The translations under genes were made by a program, and so were the position numbers. From a virus (Duplodnaviria > Heunggongvirae > Uroviricota > Caudoviricetes): DNA of 4,501 bases. The stretch lies in IMG/VR virus record IMGVR_UViG_2706794676_000009. The stretch is one strand, 5' to 3'. The notes under the pieces are model-generated. The model did no database searches. It worked only from the letters and a program-made list of their open reading frames with translations, and had not been told where the DNA came from. Positions 1-4,501 of this stretch are shown in pieces (positions within the stretch are counted from its first letter, which is position 1; each line of letters begins with the position of its first letter).

Positions 1-50
1 GGGAATATCTCCCCGGCAGCCTTCAGGGAAAAATATCATCAGATGGCTGC

Positions 51-404
51 TTAAAAAAAGAACAAATGGTAGTGTCCGCTATTGCCAGTACACCTCAATT
101 GCTCTGCGGCTTCGCTCAGAGCTGGCGTATGTTCCCGGCCTACTGATTCACACAGGTAATCAACGAAACCGGACACCAGTTTTCGTTCGCGAGGCGTGAT
201 CGCCCCACCGACCGGAGTCCAGTAATCGAAACCCAGTTGCAGGAGTTTGAAAAAACGCTTGTGGAATGCGTAGTTACACACACGCTTAAAGTCTGCGTGT
301 ATCCACTCACCTATTTTGATTTGATGCAGAAAATCGCAACTCTCCGGCGTCGCCGGGAGAAGTAATCCGGAAGAGGTTTGTTTGACCAGTTGTATATGTG
401 CCAT
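51..404 (-). CDS. small phage-type protein of unknown function (117 aa)
   Basis: Minus-strand ORF 51..446 from the track. The 446 end is only a TTG, whereas the internal ATG at 402-404 has GGAGAAAG about 7 nt upstream, so I place the start at 404. Stop TAA at 51-53. Translation MAHIQLVKQ...FHKRFFKLLQLGFDYWTPVGG... resembles small conserved nin-region proteins of lambdoid phages, but that family assignment is memory only. Confidence 0.5.
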   Translation of the reverse strand: MAHIQLVKQTSSGLLLPATPESCDFLHQIKIGEWIHADFKRVCNYAFHKRFFKLLQLGFDYWTPVGGAITPRERKLVSGFVDYLCESVGREHTPALSEAAEQLRCTGNSGHYHLFFF

Positions 405-1037: not shown

Positions 1038-1141
1038 CGGATTCGTACCTCACAGAGGTCTTTCCTCGTTACCAGTGCCGTCACTATGACGGTTAAACAG
1101 ATGACGATCAGGGCGATTAACATCGCCTTTTGCTGCTTCAT
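1038..1141 (-). CDS. hokD: Hok/Gef-family type I membrane toxin, 5' portion only (3' end lost in N run)
   Basis: ATG at 1139-1141 preceded by AAGGAG 9 nt upstream. The 34 visible residues MKQQKAMLIALIVICLTVIVTALVTRKDLCEVRI, plus an unambiguous Arg from CGN at the gap edge, match my recollection of E. coli HokD (RelF) residue for residue and show the hydrophobic helix followed by the RKDLCE motif typical of Hok proteins. The symbol rests on recalled sequence, not a search. Confidence 0.75.
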
Positions 1142-1214
1142 AGCCTGCTTCTCCTTGCCTTTCGGCATGTAAGAGGCTAACCTACATGTGCAAAGCATGA
1201 AATTGGCCTCAGAT

Positions 1215-1249
1215 TAATGTTAAGCGTCTTGCCGGACGCGTAATGTTAA
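1215..1249. repeat. imperfect palindrome TTAAGCGTC-n6-GACGCGTAA (1220-1243) bracketed by direct repeats TAATGTTAA (1215-1223 and 1241-1249)
   Basis: Read directly from the sequence. Located in the hok 5' leader, about 75-110 nt upstream of the hok ATG. Confidence 0.5.
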
Positions 1250-1262
1250 CTGGGGCTTTTCT

Positions 1263-1299
1263 CTATCTGCCTTTTGGTGTTCATGCCTGAAGCAGATAG
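1263..1299. repeat. inverted repeat CTATCTGC-n21-GCAGATAG
   Basis: Perfect 8-bp arms at 1263-1270 and 1292-1299, read directly from the sequence. Lies between the candidate promoter and the hok ATG. Could be an RNA stem in the leader or a dimeric protein-binding site. Confidence 0.5.
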
Positions 1300-1317
1300 C
1301 CTCAAGCACCCGCAGTC

Positions 1318-1368: not shown

Positions 1369-2055
1369 TCACTCCTTCTCTTCTTTACCGTAGTGGAGTT
1401 GACCAATTTTGATAAGAGGGCGTCCCTGAGATTTGCGGTGTAGATTGGTATCGCGCAGAGAATACACACAGCCACAATATTCCTGCTGATAGAATTTTTC
1501 GCGCTTGCTGATTTCAATCATACGGGACGAGCCGCCCTGCTTGCGCCAGTTATAATCCCAGTACACCATGCCCGGATAATGCGCGACGGCTCGCCGCCCA
1601 CAGTCGTTAACCTGCTGCATATTTTTCCAGCGTGAAATGCCCAGTGAACTGCTGATCACACTGAAACCATTTTCAGCGGCGTACAGCGCTGTCCGCTCAA
1701 AACGCATGTCAAAACACATGGTGCAACGGATCCCTCGTTCGGGCTCCCATTCCATTCCTTTGGCTCGTTCAAACCAGTTGTCTGTGTCGTAATCAGCATC
1801 AATAAACGGCACGCCGTGTTGTTCAGCAAAGCGAATATTCTCATCCTTACGAATTAAATACTCTTTCTGAGGATGAATGTTCGGGTTGTAGAAAAAGATG
1901 GTGTAGTCGATTCCCGAGGCCTGAAGCGCCTCCATCACCTCACCGGAACATGGAGCACAGCAAGAGTGCAGTAGTAGTTTGTTTGCCCCGTTTGGGAGCT
2001 CCAATTTGGGCCGTTTGAAATCAGCAACTGTCATAAATATGTTTATTGGGGTCAT
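1369..2055 (-). CDS. DUF208/QueH-like protein (candidate cobalamin-independent epoxyqueuosine reductase)
   Basis: 228-aa ORF, ATG at 2053-2055, stop TGA at 1369-1371. Motifs [11 protein letters not shown] near the N-terminus, [18 protein letters not shown] in the middle and [12 protein letters not shown] near the C-terminus fit what I recall of the QueH family (clustered Cys ligands for an Fe-S centre). No Shine-Dalgarno before either the first ATG or the second at codon 8. Confidence 0.5.
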
Positions 2056-2202: not shown

Positions 2203-2616
2203 TTATTCAGTTCTGGATTTTGTCGCCCTGCGTATCCGCGCTTTCGCGTTACGCTCAATCTGTATCAGCTTTTCTATATTTCTCCGCCTTTCCTGTTCCT
2301 CCTGGCGCAATAGCCTTACATCATCTGCCAGTCTGGTTTCTCTTTTTGCCACAGAGAGCATCCAGTCAAACGGCTCCACAACCGCACCGCAGATTTTACA
2401 GCGGACCTGACGCTCTTTTTCGTCAACCCGTACAGAGGCGTGATGGCAATATGGTCTTTCCGATGGCTCATAAAGAAAATTAACCTGATTACGAGGGTCA
2501 TCCTCTTTTACCGGAAATAAAACGATATTGCTTAACTCATCTTCTGGTTTTATTTCCATGCTCCTCTCCTTTGATGCGAATGCCAGCGGTAATTGAAGCC
2601 TGATAGCTAATTTCAT
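2203..2616 (-). CDS. hypothetical protein with putative zinc-ribbon (CHH...C-x2-C) and charged C-terminal helix
   Basis: ATG at 2614-2616 directly abuts the TGA stop (2617-2619) of the upstream gene, suggesting translational coupling. An alternative start at ATG 2557-2559 has a strong AAGGAG 6 nt upstream and would give 118 aa. Contains YCHHASVRVDEKERQVRCKICG and an Arg/Glu-rich C-terminus (RLLRQEEQERRRNIEKLIQIERNAKARIRR). Stop TAA at 2203-2205. Confidence 0.55.
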   Translation of the reverse strand: MKLAIRLQLPLAFASKERSMEIKPEDELSNIVLFPVKEDDPRNQVNFLYEPSERPYCHHASVRVDEKERQVRCKICGAVVEPFDWMLSVAKRETRLADDVRLLRQEEQERRRNIEKLIQIERNAKARIRRATKSRTE

Positions 2617-3039
2617 TCACAGTATCGCCTCCTGAAAATTACCCTGATAGAAAGCCAGTACACGCTGCATAGCTTCGCTCTTCCGGCACTCGCGACAGAT
2701 TATATTCAGGCGCCTGTCGTAGCGGCGTATTTCTCCGTCAGGTAATGACCAGATAAGGTCCGGATCAACAACAACCGGTTTCCTCACCTTTACTCTCGAG
2801 AGTTTTTTGCGGGCGCTTTGCCAGTCCTTGCGAGCCTGTTCAGACGGGAATAAGCCGTAGCCAGAATTATATACATCACCACTTGCGACCAGTTCTATGC
2901 ATAAGCGACCGACAGACGCACGACTGATACCTGTTTCATCTGACAACTGCCGAATCGTGACCCGACCGTCCTGATGCACGAGTTCCACAATTCGCGTCTT
3001 CAGTTCTTCCCGCTGTTCGGGAGTAAAAGGTTTCGCCAT
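2617..3039 (-). CDS. winged-helix/HTH DNA-binding protein (phage-associated, function unknown)
   Basis: ATG at 3037-3039 with a perfect AGGAGG 4 nt upstream, 14 nt after the DnaC-like stop. 140 aa; the N-terminal segment RVTIRQLSDETGISRASVGRLCIELVASGDV looks like a helix-turn-helix, followed by a basic stretch ARKKLSRVKVRKP. It might correspond to the Rac YdaW/DUF977 type, but that is an unverified guess. Confidence 0.65.
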   Translation of the reverse strand: MAKPFTPEQREELKTRIVELVHQDGRVTIRQLSDETGISRASVGRLCIELVASGDVYNSGYGLFPSEQARKDWQSARKKLSRVKVRKPVVVDPDLIWSLPDGEIRRYDRRLNIICRECRKSEAMQRVLAFYQGNFQEAIL

Positions 3040-3053
3040 AAATCCTCCTGAAA

Positions 3054-3723
3054 CTACTTAACAACCCTCGAATGGCTAACATTCGGACGCCAGCTCTCCC
3101 AGTTAAAATTCACCCAGCGNNNNNNNNNNNNNNNNNNNNNNNNNNNNNNNNNNNNNNNNNNNNNNNNNNNNNNNNNNNNNNNNNNNNNNNNNNNNNNNNN
3201 NNNNNNNNNNNNNNNNNNNNNNNNNNNNNNNNNNNNNNNNNNNNNNNNNNNNNNNNNNNNNNNNNNNNNNNNNNNNNNNNNNNNNNNNNNNNNNNNNNNN
3301 NNNNNNNNNNNNNNNNNNNNNNNNNNNNNNNNNNNNNNNNNNNNNNNNNNNNNNNNNNNNGATAGCTGCCGCTAAGTGATTCTTCCCGGTACCAGGTTTT
3401 CCGCTGAACGCAAAATTTGTACACCCGGTCATCAGTTCATCGGCGATGGATTTCGCCTGGCTTAACGCGTATCGCTGGCCGTCGTTCTGCACCTGGTAAT
3501 TCGCAAACGAGCATTTACGGTGCAACGGCTGGATGCCTGAGCGATTCAGAATTTTTTCCACCCGCAACTGGCGATTCAGGCGGTTGATCTCCTCGCTACG
3601 TTTCTGGCCTTCAGCAAGTTGCCACTCGCGCCACTCCGCTACCGTTCTGAATGGGGCGGTTACATGTGGCGGGGTCAGTCGGCGGATGCGTTCCAGAACG
3701 CCGCCTGTCGCAATATTTTTCAT
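3054..3723 (-). CDS. DnaC-like replicative helicase loader (AAA+ ATPase), interrupted by N run
   Basis: ATG at 3721-3723 with GGGGG 9 nt upstream, 6 nt after the initiator stop. N-terminal 121 aa end in the Walker A motif FSGKPGTGKNHLAAAI and follow E. coli DnaC closely (NRSGIQPLHRKCSFANYQV vs DnaC NRSGIRPLHQNCSFENYRV). After the gap, the frame ending TAG at 3054-3056 encodes WVNFNWESWRPNVSHSRVVK, which matches the DnaC C-terminus (WVIFNWDSYRSRV). The track's stop at 3103 is a frame artefact of the gap. The span is 670 nt, not a multiple of 3, so the gap length is not exact or there is an indel. Confidence 0.8.
3120..3360. other. unresolved or masked sequence (241 N)
   Basis: Uninterrupted run of n inside the DnaC-like gene, immediately after the Walker A motif. 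Confidence 0.97.
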
Positions 3724-4190: not shown

Positions 4191-4501
4191 CCGTTTTTTT
4201 TAGAGCTTTTTCCGTTATGACGTTCAAAGTTAGGTAGAGAAAGCCCTCCGTCATTTTCGACCAGCCATCCAACCTGAATTAACGCATCAGCAAAACCAGA
4301 CATAAAAGTGATGCGATCTATTGCACTTTTTGTAACGCCGCGAGCGTTACAATCTGCATTACCGTCTATCATTTGTTGATCCGCCCATGCCCAGAAGCGA
4401 ATAACCTGAGGTAGCCTGAGTTTAACGGACACTCCTTCCTGAAATAGAATGGCATCAGAAGGAGCTAATAATGAGCAGAAAAACCCAACGTTACTCTAAA
4501 G

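What the first reader, a model, noticed from the sequence alone, without database searches (positions are those of the whole stretch)
2203..3039. Translationally coupled winged-helix plus zinc-ribbon gene pair directly after the helicase loader
Two small genes follow the DnaC-like gene. The first (140 aa) has a strong AGGAGG and an N-terminal HTH; the second (137 aa, or 118 aa from the internal start) has a CHH...CxxC motif and a highly charged helical tail, and its ATG abuts the stop of the first. I do not recognise either as a characterised family. The position, between the replication module and cargo genes, is where lambdoid phages keep small regulators, replication modulators and host-takeover or anti-defence factors, and a DNA-binding protein coupled to a zinc-ribbon partner is a common layout for such modules.
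Basis: inference. Interest (0 to 1): 0.5.

Follow-up and report, generated by a model that had tools for sequence, protein, structure and literature searches.

The report
Ren-like gene, ea22 scar, zinc-ribbon gene
The two small genes are real, but they are two independent and very common prophage accessory genes (a Ren-like DNA-binding protein and an uncharacterised zinc-ribbon protein) that ended up side by side when the ea22 gene between them was deleted, not a dedicated coupled pair.

Summary
Both ORFs exist as described, on the minus strand of a Rac-type lambdoid prophage remnant flanked by IS600-like ends.

- **Gene A (2617-3039, 140 aa):** this is a catalogued family, Pfam DUF977 (1e-33) and PHROG 142 'Ren-like exclusion protein', which also holds lambda Ren. 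It has a confident winged helix and sits where lambda keeps ren, right after the helicase-loader gene.
- **Gene B:** it is real, but it starts at the internal ATG 2559 (118 aa), not at the ATG that abuts A's stop. It has a CxH...CxxC zinc knuckle and one long charged helix. It belongs to PHROG 1621 (function unknown). It has no Pfam family and no structural relative. About 1,580 sequence clusters match its profile.
- **The 57-nt spacer:** it is the in-frame remnant of a deleted ea22 gene, a 27-codon mini-ORF at 2537-2620. B normally follows ead/Ea22-like genes with a 23-nt overlap.
- **Distribution in 5,426 complete E. coli genomes:** A occurs in 3,617, B in 1,679, and the direct A-B junction in at least 1,040. 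Outside Escherichia/Shigella, B has other neighbours.

The 'coupled module' reading is not supported. The 'small early accessory factors' reading is. The functions of both genes remain inferred. Interest is low to moderate.

The parts
3054..3723 (-). ydaV, a DnaC-like helicase-loader gene. The middle part (3120-3360) is masked by N. The stop is TAG at 3056-3054.
   Evidence: The near-identical locus L001 annotates 'ydaV: ATP-binding protein' ending 14 nt before gene A. The N-terminal 121 aa carry a Walker A motif and give a weak IstB_IS21 hit. The coordinate offset against L001 is described.
3044..3053 (-). TTTCAGGAGG: the ribosome-binding block of gene A (AGGAGG at 3049-3044, 4 nt before the ATG at 3039).
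   Evidence: Read directly from the sequence. The decamer occurs twice in the window against 0.01 expected, each time just before a gene start.
2617..3039 (-). Gene A, 140 aa: a DUF977 / Ren-like protein. It has an N-terminal winged helix (residues 7-63), a basic helix (67-82), and a C-terminal part ending in the Ren-type motif NIICRECRKSEAMQRVLAFY.
   Evidence: Pfam PF06163 1.1e-33 and HTH_24 above its cut-off. PHROG 142 2.7e-44. Lambda Ren is also in PHROG 142 at 1.6e-41. The C-terminal 20-23 aa match lambda Ren. In the AF2 model residues 11-70 have pLDDT of 90 or more. Foldseek matches IclR/MarR/GntR winged helices with probability 1.0.
2628..2637 (-). Second copy of TTTCAGGAGG, inside the 3' end of gene A. 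In other prophages it serves as the ribosome-binding block of the next gene (ea22 or DUF4406).
2537..2620 (-). 27-codon mini-ORF (VNEISYQASITAGIRIKGEEHGNKTRR*), the in-frame remnant of a deleted ead/Ea22-like gene. Its GTG overlaps A's TGA (GTGA), and its stop lies 23 nt inside gene B.
   Evidence: Translation. Lambda Ea22 begins VSEINSQALREAAE and ends DAGIRIKGE*. Full-length Ea22-like genes upstream of B begin (M/V)S(E/K)I(D/N)YQALREAAE and end AGIRIKGEEH.NKTR(R/G)*. The homology shared by all B contexts ends 29 nt upstream of B's ATG.
2561..2570 (-). AGGAGAGGAG: the ribosome-binding site of gene B. The first AGGAG ends 6 nt before the ATG at 2559.
   Evidence: Conserved in every genomic context of B.
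2203..2559 (-). Gene B, 118 aa (PHROG 1621). It has an acidic N-terminal region carrying the conserved motif ELSNxVxFP, a small zinc knuckle, and one long helix that ends in the near-invariant basic motif IERNAKARIRR.
2389..2448 (-). Codons for the four invariant putative zinc ligands: C38, H40, C54 and C57.
   Evidence: The three Cys are invariant in 51 sequences sharing 21-50% identity with B, and H40 is kept in at least 90% of them. All four are invariant in A1. Short beta strands at 43-46 and 51-54 appear in the model. There is a sub-threshold TFIIB zinc-ribbon hit.
2209..2373 (-). Codons for the single long helix (residues 63-117). The last 28 residues carry a net charge of +8.
   Evidence: AF2 gives helix 63-117 with pLDDT 90-94 over residues 81-110. 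Charge profile. Conservation.
2560..2616 (-). The 19-codon 'N-terminal extension' of the 137-aa ORF. It is not part of gene B: it is the ea22 remnant read in another frame.

Best explanation
The region holds two independent, co-transcribed accessory early genes of a Rac-type lambdoid prophage. A gene deletion brought them together.

**Gene A** is the ren-position gene that closes the replication module.
- Shown: it is a DUF977 / Ren-like protein with a winged helix, a hypervariable recognition-helix region and a nearly invariant C-terminal half.
- Inferred, by analogy with lambda Ren: it acts on the phage's own replication or exclusion interface by binding DNA or partner proteins. It would protect the phage from Rex-type abortive exclusion that early or replication functions trigger. 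It is not a classical repressor.

**Gene B** is a 118-aa protein with a CxH...CxxC zinc knuckle, an acidic N-terminal peptide motif and one long helix ending in an arginine-rich patch.
- Shown: its usual upstream partner is an ead/Ea22-like gene, which it overlaps by 23 nt, so it occupies the slot that ea8.5 has in lambda. In this lineage ea22 was deleted in frame. A 27-codon remnant now bridges A's stop and B's start.
- Inferred, with low confidence: B is an adaptor or regulator of the same kind as the lambda exo-xis proteins. The zinc knuckle and basic helix would bind a nucleic acid or a host protein, and the effect would be on phage development or host physiology.

B is translated from its own strong ribosome-binding site. 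Any coupling to A would run through the mini-ORF, not through the abutting ATG.
For: **Gene A**
- Identity.
- It always lies directly after the last replication gene, whichever replication module is present: DnaC-like, YdaU-only or other. This is the position lambda ren holds after P.
- The wHTH recognition region varies between alleles while residues 54-135 are nearly invariant.

**True start of B**.

**Spacer is a deleted ea22**.

**Contexts of B**
- In 104 sampled copies: 49 after DUF977 (48 with a 57-nt gap), 42 after Ea22-like genes (34 with a -23 overlap), and the rest after NinG, RusA-like, HNH or other genes.
- Counts in 5,426 complete E. coli genomes: A in 3,617, B in 1,679, direct junction in at least 1,040.
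- Distant homologues sit in early regions of other phages and elements with no constant partner.

**Other**
- No promoter-like or terminator-like site lies between A and B on the coding strand.
- B has no hit in Pfam, PADLOC, PDB or BFVD beyond a generic zinc ribbon or coiled coil.
- Literature: Ea22 is reported as pro-lysogenic and exo-xis genes as modulators of the lysis-lysogeny decision (PMC7093339, PMC8614690; abstracts). Two-hybrid screens report contacts of lambda Ren with RexB, Rex proteins, O and Ea8.5 (PMC3224144; bioRxiv 10.1101/2021.04.19.439022).
Against: - No experiment bears on either protein. The link from A to lambda Ren rests on shared PHROG membership and a 20-23-residue C-terminal match, since lambda Ren does not score on Pfam DUF977. 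The mechanism of Ren itself is unknown.
- The direct A-B arrangement is frequent (at least 1,040 genomes) and combines one nearly invariant B allele with A alleles of 54-100% identity. That could reflect selection for the adjacency rather than a neutral scar.
- The mini-ORF is open in nearly all direct junctions, so some coupling of B to A is not excluded.
- The B model has only moderate confidence (pLDDT 75, pTM 0.40), and its oligomeric state was not modelled.
Confidence: 0.7

Rival explanations
1. A and B form a genuine two-protein module. The winged-helix protein and the zinc-ribbon protein work together, for example as a complex, and the direct junction was selected because it couples their expression.
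For: - The direct junction occurs in at least 1,040 of the 1,679 B-carrying genomes.
- The same B allele follows many A alleles at a constant 57-nt distance.
- The mini-ORF keeps start/stop overlaps on both sides.
- Rare in-frame A-B fusion proteins of 278 aa exist.
- In lambda, the zinc-finger protein Ea8.5, which occupies B's slot after ea22, gave a yeast two-hybrid hit with Ren (PMC3224144).
Against: - About four fifths of A copies have no B directly after them (5,014 A places against at least 1,040 genomes with the junction).
- 42 of 104 sampled B copies follow Ea22-like genes instead, some of them far from any DUF977, in the exo-xis region of Stx phages.
- No DUF977 was detected near B in the loci from other genera by tblastn with gene A, and none is listed beside the three distant homologues.
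- The Ea8.5-Ren hit came from a single vector combination, and the authors call that bait promiscuous. B is not homologous to Ea8.5 (hhalign probability 5.5%).
Confidence: 0.15
2. The pair is a toxin-antitoxin or anti-phage defence cassette, with an HTH antitoxin or regulator and a small effector.
For: The layout is a small HTH gene followed by a small charged protein, in a prophage cargo region next to hok/sok.
Against: - Neither protein gives a significant PADLOC hit. B has none at all, and A gives only weak matches to generic HTH regions (best E 0.0017).
- The two genes are inherited independently.
- A is at the ren position of the replication operon.
- B has no enzymatic or membrane domain.
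Confidence: 0.03
3. B is a nucleic-acid-binding regulator in its own right. It would be an arginine-rich-helix RNA binder or a zinc-ribbon transcription factor, acting independently of both Ea22 and Ren-like proteins.
For: - The last 28 residues carry a net charge of +8, with the near-invariant motif ERNAKARIR.
- The zinc knuckle gives sub-threshold TFIIB-ribbon matches.
- The family is widespread in early regions of many phages with changing neighbours.
Against: - No significant match to any DNA- or RNA-binding family or structure.
- The resemblance to arginine-rich motifs is by eye only.
- The charged helix could equally be a protein-binding single alpha-helix or a coiled coil.
Confidence: 0.25

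Closest known systems
Lambda Ren (gene ren, PHROG 142 'Ren-like exclusion protein')
   Same: - Same PHROG family (A 2.7e-44, Ren 1.6e-41).
- Same gene position directly after the helicase-loader gene.
- N-terminal HTH-type region: lambda Ren also hits MarR-type regulator PHROGs, and a winged helix is modelled here for A only.
- Shared C-terminal motif (N)IxxxECRxSxAMxRVLAxY.
   Different: - A is 44 residues longer, with an extra basic helix and a conserved middle segment.
- Lambda Ren does not reach Pfam DUF977.
- Pairwise similarity is limited to about 23 residues.
- The Rex-protection phenotype is known only for lambda Ren (from my own knowledge of Toothman and Herskowitz 1980) and is untested for DUF977.
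Pfam DUF977 (PF06163), including E. coli K-12 Rac YdaW and Salmonella 'LygF'
   Same: Full-length match at 116.5 bits against a 22.1 cut-off. RefSeq annotates the near-identical protein (99.3% aa identity) as 'DUF977 family protein' WP_001118169.1. Phage records call it LygF.
   Different: Nothing structural differs: it is a plain member. The family has no assigned function. The only full-text hit for DUF977 was an unrelated domain survey.
Lambda Ea8.5 (hybrid homeodomain / zinc-finger protein encoded just downstream of ea22)
   Same: - Same genomic slot, the gene after ea22.
- A small early protein with a Cys/His pattern of the same type (CxH(H) ... CxxC in its sequence) and a local look-alike: PCRHHEGVYVDEG against YCHHASVRVDEK.
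   Different: - Not homologous by profile comparison (probability 5.5%).
- In Ea8.5 some 55 residues separate the two halves of the Cys/His pattern (the paper describes a homeodomain-like fold). B has 13 residues there and then a 55-residue helix.
- No Ea8.5 structure appeared among the top 50 Foldseek PDB matches listed.
TFIIB-type zinc ribbon (PF08271) and DksA/TraR-type zinc-finger and helix proteins (e.g. lambda Orf73)
   Same: A small four-ligand zinc knuckle with short beta hairpins next to a long helix. The weak PF08271 hits are 21.1 bits for the 137-aa ORF and 21.5 for the 118-aa protein, and they recur in 6 of 51 relatives.
   Different: - The score is below the Pfam cut-off of 29 bits.
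- One ligand is His.
- There is no hit to the DksA/TraR family.
- The topology is reversed: the zinc knuckle comes before one long helix, not a coiled-coil hairpin before the finger.

Membership tests
Pfam DUF977 (PF06163), gene A | Whole-protein HMM score at or above the gathering cut-off (22.1 bits), covering the full model. | tested here: met
   116.5 bits, E 1.1e-33, model positions 1-134 of 134.
Ren-like exclusion protein (PHROG 142), gene A | Significant match to the PHROG 142 profile, which must also hold lambda Ren itself. | tested here: met
   A 2.7e-44; lambda Ren 1.6e-41.
Ren-like exclusion protein (PHROG 142), gene A | Direct sequence relationship to lambda Ren. | tested here: inconclusive
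   Only the C-terminal 20-23 residues align (BLASTP 3e-07; hhalign probability 87.7%). Lambda Ren does not hit Pfam DUF977.
Ren-like exclusion protein (PHROG 142), gene A | Gene lies immediately downstream of the replication (helicase-loader) gene in the early-right operon. | tested here: met
   14 nt after ydaV here. Directly after the last replication gene in 77 related loci carrying four different upstream gene types. Lambda ren overlaps the end of P.
Ren-like exclusion protein (PHROG 142), gene A | Protects the phage from Rex-dependent exclusion. | not testable with these tools
   Needs plating of a ren-minus phage complemented with gene A on a Rex+ lysogen.
Winged helix-turn-helix, gene A | Three-helix bundle plus beta wing, recognisable by sequence and by fold. 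| tested here: met
   HTH_24 at 26.0 bits against a 21.9 cut-off, and HTH_IclR at 23.1 against 22. AF2 gives helices 7-24, 29-36 and 40-53 plus a wing at 57-63, with pLDDT of 90 or more. Foldseek matches IclR/MarR/GntR/CadC with probability 1.0.
PHROG 1621 (function unknown), gene B | Significant full-length match to the profile. | tested here: met
   5.1e-56 for residues 20-136 of the 137-aa ORF. All 51 distant relatives also match.
TFIIB-type zinc ribbon (PF08271), gene B | HMM score at or above the gathering cut-off (29 bits). | tested here: not met
   21.1 bits for the 137-aa ORF and 21.5 bits for the 118-aa protein. The best Foldseek match is the TFIIB N-terminal domain at E 0.42.
Zinc-binding knuckle or ribbon in general, gene B | Four conserved Cys/His ligands in two pairs flanking a beta hairpin. 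| tested here: met
   C38, C54 and C57 are invariant and H40 is kept in at least 90% of 51 divergent relatives. Strands at 43-46 and 51-54. Metal binding itself was not tested.
Lambda Ea8.5 family, gene B | Profile-level homology to Ea8.5. | tested here: not met
   hhalign probability 5.5%.
Translationally coupled gene pair (A with B) | The stop of the upstream gene overlaps or abuts the true start of the downstream gene. | tested here: not met
   The true start is 2559, 57 nt after A's stop. The abutting ATG is lineage-specific.
Conserved two-gene module (A with B) | The two genes co-occur and stay adjacent across related elements and taxa. | tested here: not met
   The junction is found in at least 1,040 genomes, against 3,617 genomes carrying A and 1,679 carrying B. 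42 of 104 B copies follow Ea22-like genes. No DUF977 was found next to B outside Escherichia/Shigella.
Known anti-phage defence or toxin-antitoxin systems | Match to a PADLOC model. | tested here: not met
   B has no hit. A gives only weak matches to generic HTH regions (best E 0.0017).

The most novel reading that the evidence does not exclude
The B family is an uncharacterised class of early phage regulators. It combines a zinc knuckle, an acidic NVxFP peptide and an arginine-rich long helix, and about 1,580 sequence clusters match its profile with no Pfam model. It would act together with Ea22-type and/or Ren-type proteins on the lysis-lysogeny or exclusion decision, for example by binding RNA or a host factor. 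The frequent A-(deleted ea22)-B arrangement would then be a selected rewiring that puts B under the replication operon through a bridging mini-ORF.
Probability: 0.1. Interest if true: 0.55.

Novelty: new member of a known kind. Interest (0 to 1): 0.25.

Why it matters
As presented, a coupled DNA-binder and zinc-ribbon module, it would have been a candidate new regulatory or anti-defence pair. The evidence instead shows ordinary mosaic prophage architecture.

Three useful results remain:
- DUF977, present in two thirds of complete E. coli genomes, can be tied to lambda Ren by family, motif and position. That gives a testable function: protection from Rex-type exclusion.
- B belongs to a large family with strongly conserved motifs and no known function, and it rides behind ea22 in the slot of lambda ea8.5.
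- The 137-aa annotation used in some phage records is an artefact of reading an ea22 scar in the wrong frame.

Tried and rejected
- **PADLOC** on A, B and QueH gave nothing meaningful.
- **NCBIfam** gave no family for B and only sub-threshold HTH regulators for A.
- **PDB sequence searches**, single and by profile. B gave only coiled-coil noise such as keratin and GCN4. A gave a weak match to Z-alpha winged helices of PKZ (E 0.003). I rejected this as generic wHTH similarity. By eye, and from my recollection of the Z-alpha contact motif, the Asn/Tyr contact positions of Z-alpha read Gly/Ile in A.
- **Foldseek** of the B model against PDB and BFVD found nothing below E 0.29.
- **B against lambda Ea8.5** by hhalign was rejected at probability 5.5%.
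- **Origin of the spacer.** I first guessed that its 5' half was the start of the DUF4406 gene that follows A in other prophages. It is not. It matches the start of ea22.
- **The first whole-pair megablast** (22 genomes with at least 80% coverage) understated co-occurrence, because A alleles diverge at the DNA level. It was replaced by junction-specific and gene-specific searches.
- **Literature searches** for DUF977 and LygF found no functional study. LygF appears only as a gene label: the two Salmonella genome announcements among the hits were seen as abstracts and do not describe it.
- **One homologue search** timed out and was repeated.
- **Complex prediction** of A with B was not possible with the tools available.
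Full report
**Setting**

All relevant genes are on the minus strand. The window matches E. coli FDAARGOS_943 at 98.2-99.8% over the unmasked segments, and Shigella flexneri and E. coli chromosomes carry gene A at 100% amino-acid identity. In the annotated near-identical locus the gene order is: Cro/CI-type regulator, YdaT-family protein, a YdaU-position replication protein, ydaV (DnaC-like), a DUF977 protein, a 118-aa hypothetical protein, QueH, hokD, and then DUF1367/DUF1364/DUF1133. This is a Rac-type lambdoid early-right operon. Window positions 1-97 and 4407-4501 match the ends of IS600-type elements. They cut the DUF1367 gene and the YdaU-like gene, so the window is a prophage remnant bounded by IS copies.

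**Observation check**

- Gene A (2617-3039) has AGGAGG 4 nt before its ATG and starts 14 nt after the ydaV stop.
- The 137-aa ORF (2203-2616) does begin with an ATG that directly follows A's TGA.
- The internal ATG at 2559 gives 118 aa.
- The CHH...CxxC motif and the charged tail are present.
- Both are real genes, not chance ORFs.

**Gene A**

- Family. It is a full-length member of Pfam DUF977 (116.5 bits against a cut-off of 22.1). It also passes the HTH_24 and HTH_IclR cut-offs.
- Link to Ren. PHROGs places it in family 142, 'Ren-like exclusion protein' (2.7e-44). Lambda Ren, fetched from NC_001416, scores 1.6e-41 on the same profile.
- Limit of that link. Direct similarity to lambda Ren is confined to the C-terminal motif: NIICRECRKSEAMQRVLAFY against NLVFKECRQSAAMKRVLAVY (BLASTP 3e-07; hhalign probability 87.7%). 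Lambda Ren does not reach Pfam DUF977. 'Ren-like' is therefore supported at remote-homology level and by position, not by close similarity.
- Structure. The AF2 model has a confident winged helix (residues 7-63) and a following helix (67-82). The C-terminal 55 residues are of low confidence. Foldseek matches IclR, MarR, GntR and CadC winged helices with probability 1.0.
- Allelic variation. Residues 28-52, which include the recognition helix, fall into at least five very different types. Residues 54-135 are almost invariant.
- Position. In 77 related loci the gene always lies directly after the last replication gene, whichever replication module is present. This is what lambda ren does after P.
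- Prevalence. The conserved 3' half of the gene is found in 3,617 of 5,426 complete E. coli genomes, at 5,014 places.

**Gene B and its start**

Evidence for the start:
- All homologues, from 96% down to about 25% identity, start at the Met that corresponds to ATG 2559.
- PHROG 1621 aligns from residue 20 of the 137-aa ORF.
- PGAP annotates 118 aa (WP_001343130.1).
- The ATG is preceded by a conserved AGGAGAGGAG.
- The codon abutting A's stop is ATG in only 21 of 92 sampled copies. In the other DUF977-context copies it is GTG or GTA, and it does not exist in other contexts.
- The true gene is therefore 2203-2559, and 57 nt separate it from A's stop.

Conserved features:
- An N-terminal ELSNxVxFP motif.
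- C38-x-H40 and C54-x-x-C57.
- A DPFD-type turn.
- A helix whose end (L/I-x-x-E-R-N-A-K-A-R-I-R) is nearly invariant even at 25-30% overall identity.

Predicted structure and relatives:
- AF2 (pLDDT 75) gives a poorly ordered acidic N-terminus (net -5), two short strands between the ligand pairs, and a single 55-residue helix. The last 28 residues of that helix carry +8 net charge.
- There is no Pfam family, only sub-threshold TFIIB-ribbon hits, and no NCBIfam or PADLOC hit.
- No significant match exists in PDB or BFVD by sequence or fold.
- All related PHROGs (1621, 8538, 4865) are of unknown function.
- The family is large: 1,581 clusters at 50% identity match the profile at E of 0.001 or better, and 258 at 1e-10 or better.

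**The spacer is a deleted ea22 gene**

- In every context, homology around B extends only about 29 nt upstream of its ATG.
- In 42 of 104 sampled copies the upstream gene is an ead/Ea22-like gene. In 34 of those its last codons (…AGIRIKGEEH.NKTR(R/G)*) run across B's start, giving a 23-nt overlap.
- Lambda Ea22 itself begins VSEINSQALREAAE and ends DAGIRIKGE*. The full-length Ea22-like genes upstream of B begin (M/V)S(E/K)I(D/N)YQALREAAE.
- In the window, a GTG overlapping A's TGA (GTGA, 2620-2617) opens a 27-codon ORF, VNEISYQASITAGIRIKGEEHGNKTRR*, which stops 23 nt inside B. This is the first ~8 and the last ~16 codons of ea22 joined in frame.
- The same mini-ORF (VSEISYQ…, VSKISYQ…) appears in the other direct A-B junctions.
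- The 19-residue 'extension' of the 137-aa ORF is this ea22 remnant read in another frame. The abutting ATG arises from an AGT-to-AAT change in the second codon of the remnant (TGAGTG to TGAATG).
- Other prophages show the undeleted orders A-ea22-B and A-DUF4406-ea22-B, in which the gene after A overlaps it by GTGA.
- The decamer TTTCAGGAGG lies just before both A's start and the remnant's start. It occurs twice against 0.01 expected.

**Co-occurrence**

| Feature | Complete E. coli genomes (n = 5,426) |
|---|---|
| Gene A (conserved 3' half) | 3,617 (5,014 places) |
| Gene B | 1,679 (2,135 places) |
| Direct A-B junction (at least 80% of a junction-specific query) | at least 1,040 |

- About 62% of B-carrying genomes have the direct junction, but only about a fifth of A copies are followed by B.
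- In 80 viral contigs, 12 genome loci and the annotated records, B follows DUF977 in 49 cases, Ea22-like genes in 42, and NinG (-4 overlap), a RusA-like gene (-10), HNH or other genes in the rest.
- In Stx phages such as ArgO145, B lies in the exo-xis region with no DUF977 nearby.
- No DUF977 was detected by tblastn with gene A near B in Kluyvera, Erwinia, Pantoea, Photorhabdus, Klebsiella, Serratia or Enterobacter loci. The three distant homologues whose contigs I looked up sit in other early regions with no DUF977 among the listed gene families.
- The association is therefore frequent in Escherichia/Shigella, facultative, and explained by a shared deletion junction.

**How it most likely works**

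Shown:
- A and B lie in one transcription unit with no promoter-like or terminator-like site between them on the coding strand.
- B has its own strong ribosome-binding site.
- A is a winged-helix protein of the Ren family at the ren position.
- B is a zinc-knuckle and long-helix protein whose ancestral upstream partner is ea22.

Inferred:
- A acts like Ren. Lambda ren mutants become sensitive to Rex exclusion (my own knowledge of Toothman and Herskowitz 1980). Two-hybrid screens report contacts of Ren with RexB, Rex proteins and O (PMC3224144; bioRxiv 10.1101/2021.04.19.439022). The hypervariable recognition helix next to an invariant C-terminal half suggests an allele-specific target, either DNA or a module-specific protein, plus a common effector surface.
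- For B the best guess is an adaptor or regulator of the exo-xis type. It occupies the slot of lambda ea8.5, next to a gene family reported as pro-lysogenic (PMC7093339). Its conserved basic helix and zinc knuckle suit nucleic-acid or protein binding. This step has low confidence.
- The Ea8.5-Ren two-hybrid hit is a lead for a functional link between the slot and Ren. It rests on a single vector combination with a bait the authors call promiscuous, and B is not homologous to Ea8.5.

**Novelty and verdict**

- Gene A is a plain member of a catalogued family of unknown mechanism.
- Gene B is a plain member of a catalogued but uncharacterised phage family.
- Near-identical proteins are annotated in thousands of genomes.
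- The proposed 'translationally coupled winged-helix plus zinc-ribbon module' is not supported.
- What is modestly new is the reading of the junction as an ea22 deletion scar, the correction of B's start, and the link of DUF977 to Ren by family, motif and position.
- Interest is low to moderate. The B family, with its invariant motifs and wide spread, is the part most worth an experiment.

Noticed in passing
window 1-97 and 4407-4501: Both window ends match IS600-type (IS3-family) element ends at 100% identity. They truncate the DUF1367 gene (98-446) and the YdaU-like replication gene. The window is a prophage fragment bounded by IS copies, as is typical of Shigella-like genomes.
   Followed up: partly
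window 3120-3360 (also 788-1037): The N-masked runs do not have the length of the corresponding sequence in the near-identical locus L001: 241 N against 318 nt, and 250 N against 244 nt. The ydaV reading frame therefore cannot be followed across the mask, and the ORF listed at 3103-3723 ends at a false stop. The true stop is at 3054-3056.
   Followed up: partly
window 1136-1311 (-) and about 1040-1198 (-): A hok/sok type I toxin-antitoxin locus. Rfam sok scores 117 bits, and the HokD toxin ORF (MKQQKAMLIALIVICLTVIVTALVTRKDLCEVRI...) is partly masked.
   Followed up: no
window 1369-2055 (-): The prophage carries an epoxyqueuosine reductase QueH homologue (Pfam QueH 1.9e-65) directly downstream of gene B, a tRNA-modification enzyme carried as cargo. 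From my own knowledge, E. coli normally uses the unrelated QueG. PHROG 3217 lists the family as unknown.
   Followed up: no
window 2884-2958 (codons 28-52 of gene A); related loci L021-L100: DUF977 alleles fall into at least five sharply different versions of the recognition-helix region, while residues 54-135 are nearly invariant. The alleles recombine with four different upstream replication-gene types, with only partial covariation.
   Followed up: partly
window 2628-2637 and 3044-3053 (-): The decamer TTTCAGGAGG occurs twice (0.01 expected), each time as the ribosome-binding block just before a gene start. The same block precedes ea22 in other prophages. It may act as a junction for module exchange.
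   Followed up: partly
proteins P0383-P0386 (278 aa); P0040 (201 aa): A few genomes encode in-frame A-B fusion proteins, because A's TGA is changed to a sense codon and the 19-codon spacer frame stays open. P0040 is a B(1-85)/A chimera.
   Followed up: partly
gene B residues 36-48 (window 2416-2454) against lambda Ea8.5 residues 26-38 (L101:575-856): A local look-alike around the first zinc-ligand pair: YCHHASVRVDEK against PCRHHEGVYVDEG. Both proteins have a CxH...CxxC-type Cys/His pattern and both are encoded right after ea22. The profile comparison is not significant (probability 5.5%).
   Followed up: yes
gene B residues 6-16 (window 2512-2544) and the family alignment A2: A short N-terminal motif, [DN]-[VI]-[VI]-x-F-P-x-[RK], is conserved across the whole B family inside an otherwise variable, low-confidence acidic region. 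It looks like a short linear docking motif for an unknown partner.
   Followed up: no
loci L037, L048, L082: Some prophage contigs carry two copies of gene B 1.5-1.7 kb apart on the same strand. In L082 one copy follows DUF977 directly and the other lies further downstream. In L037 and L048 both copies lie further downstream of DUF977 (649 and 2,347 nt). Complete E. coli genomes carry up to 5 copies.
   Followed up: no
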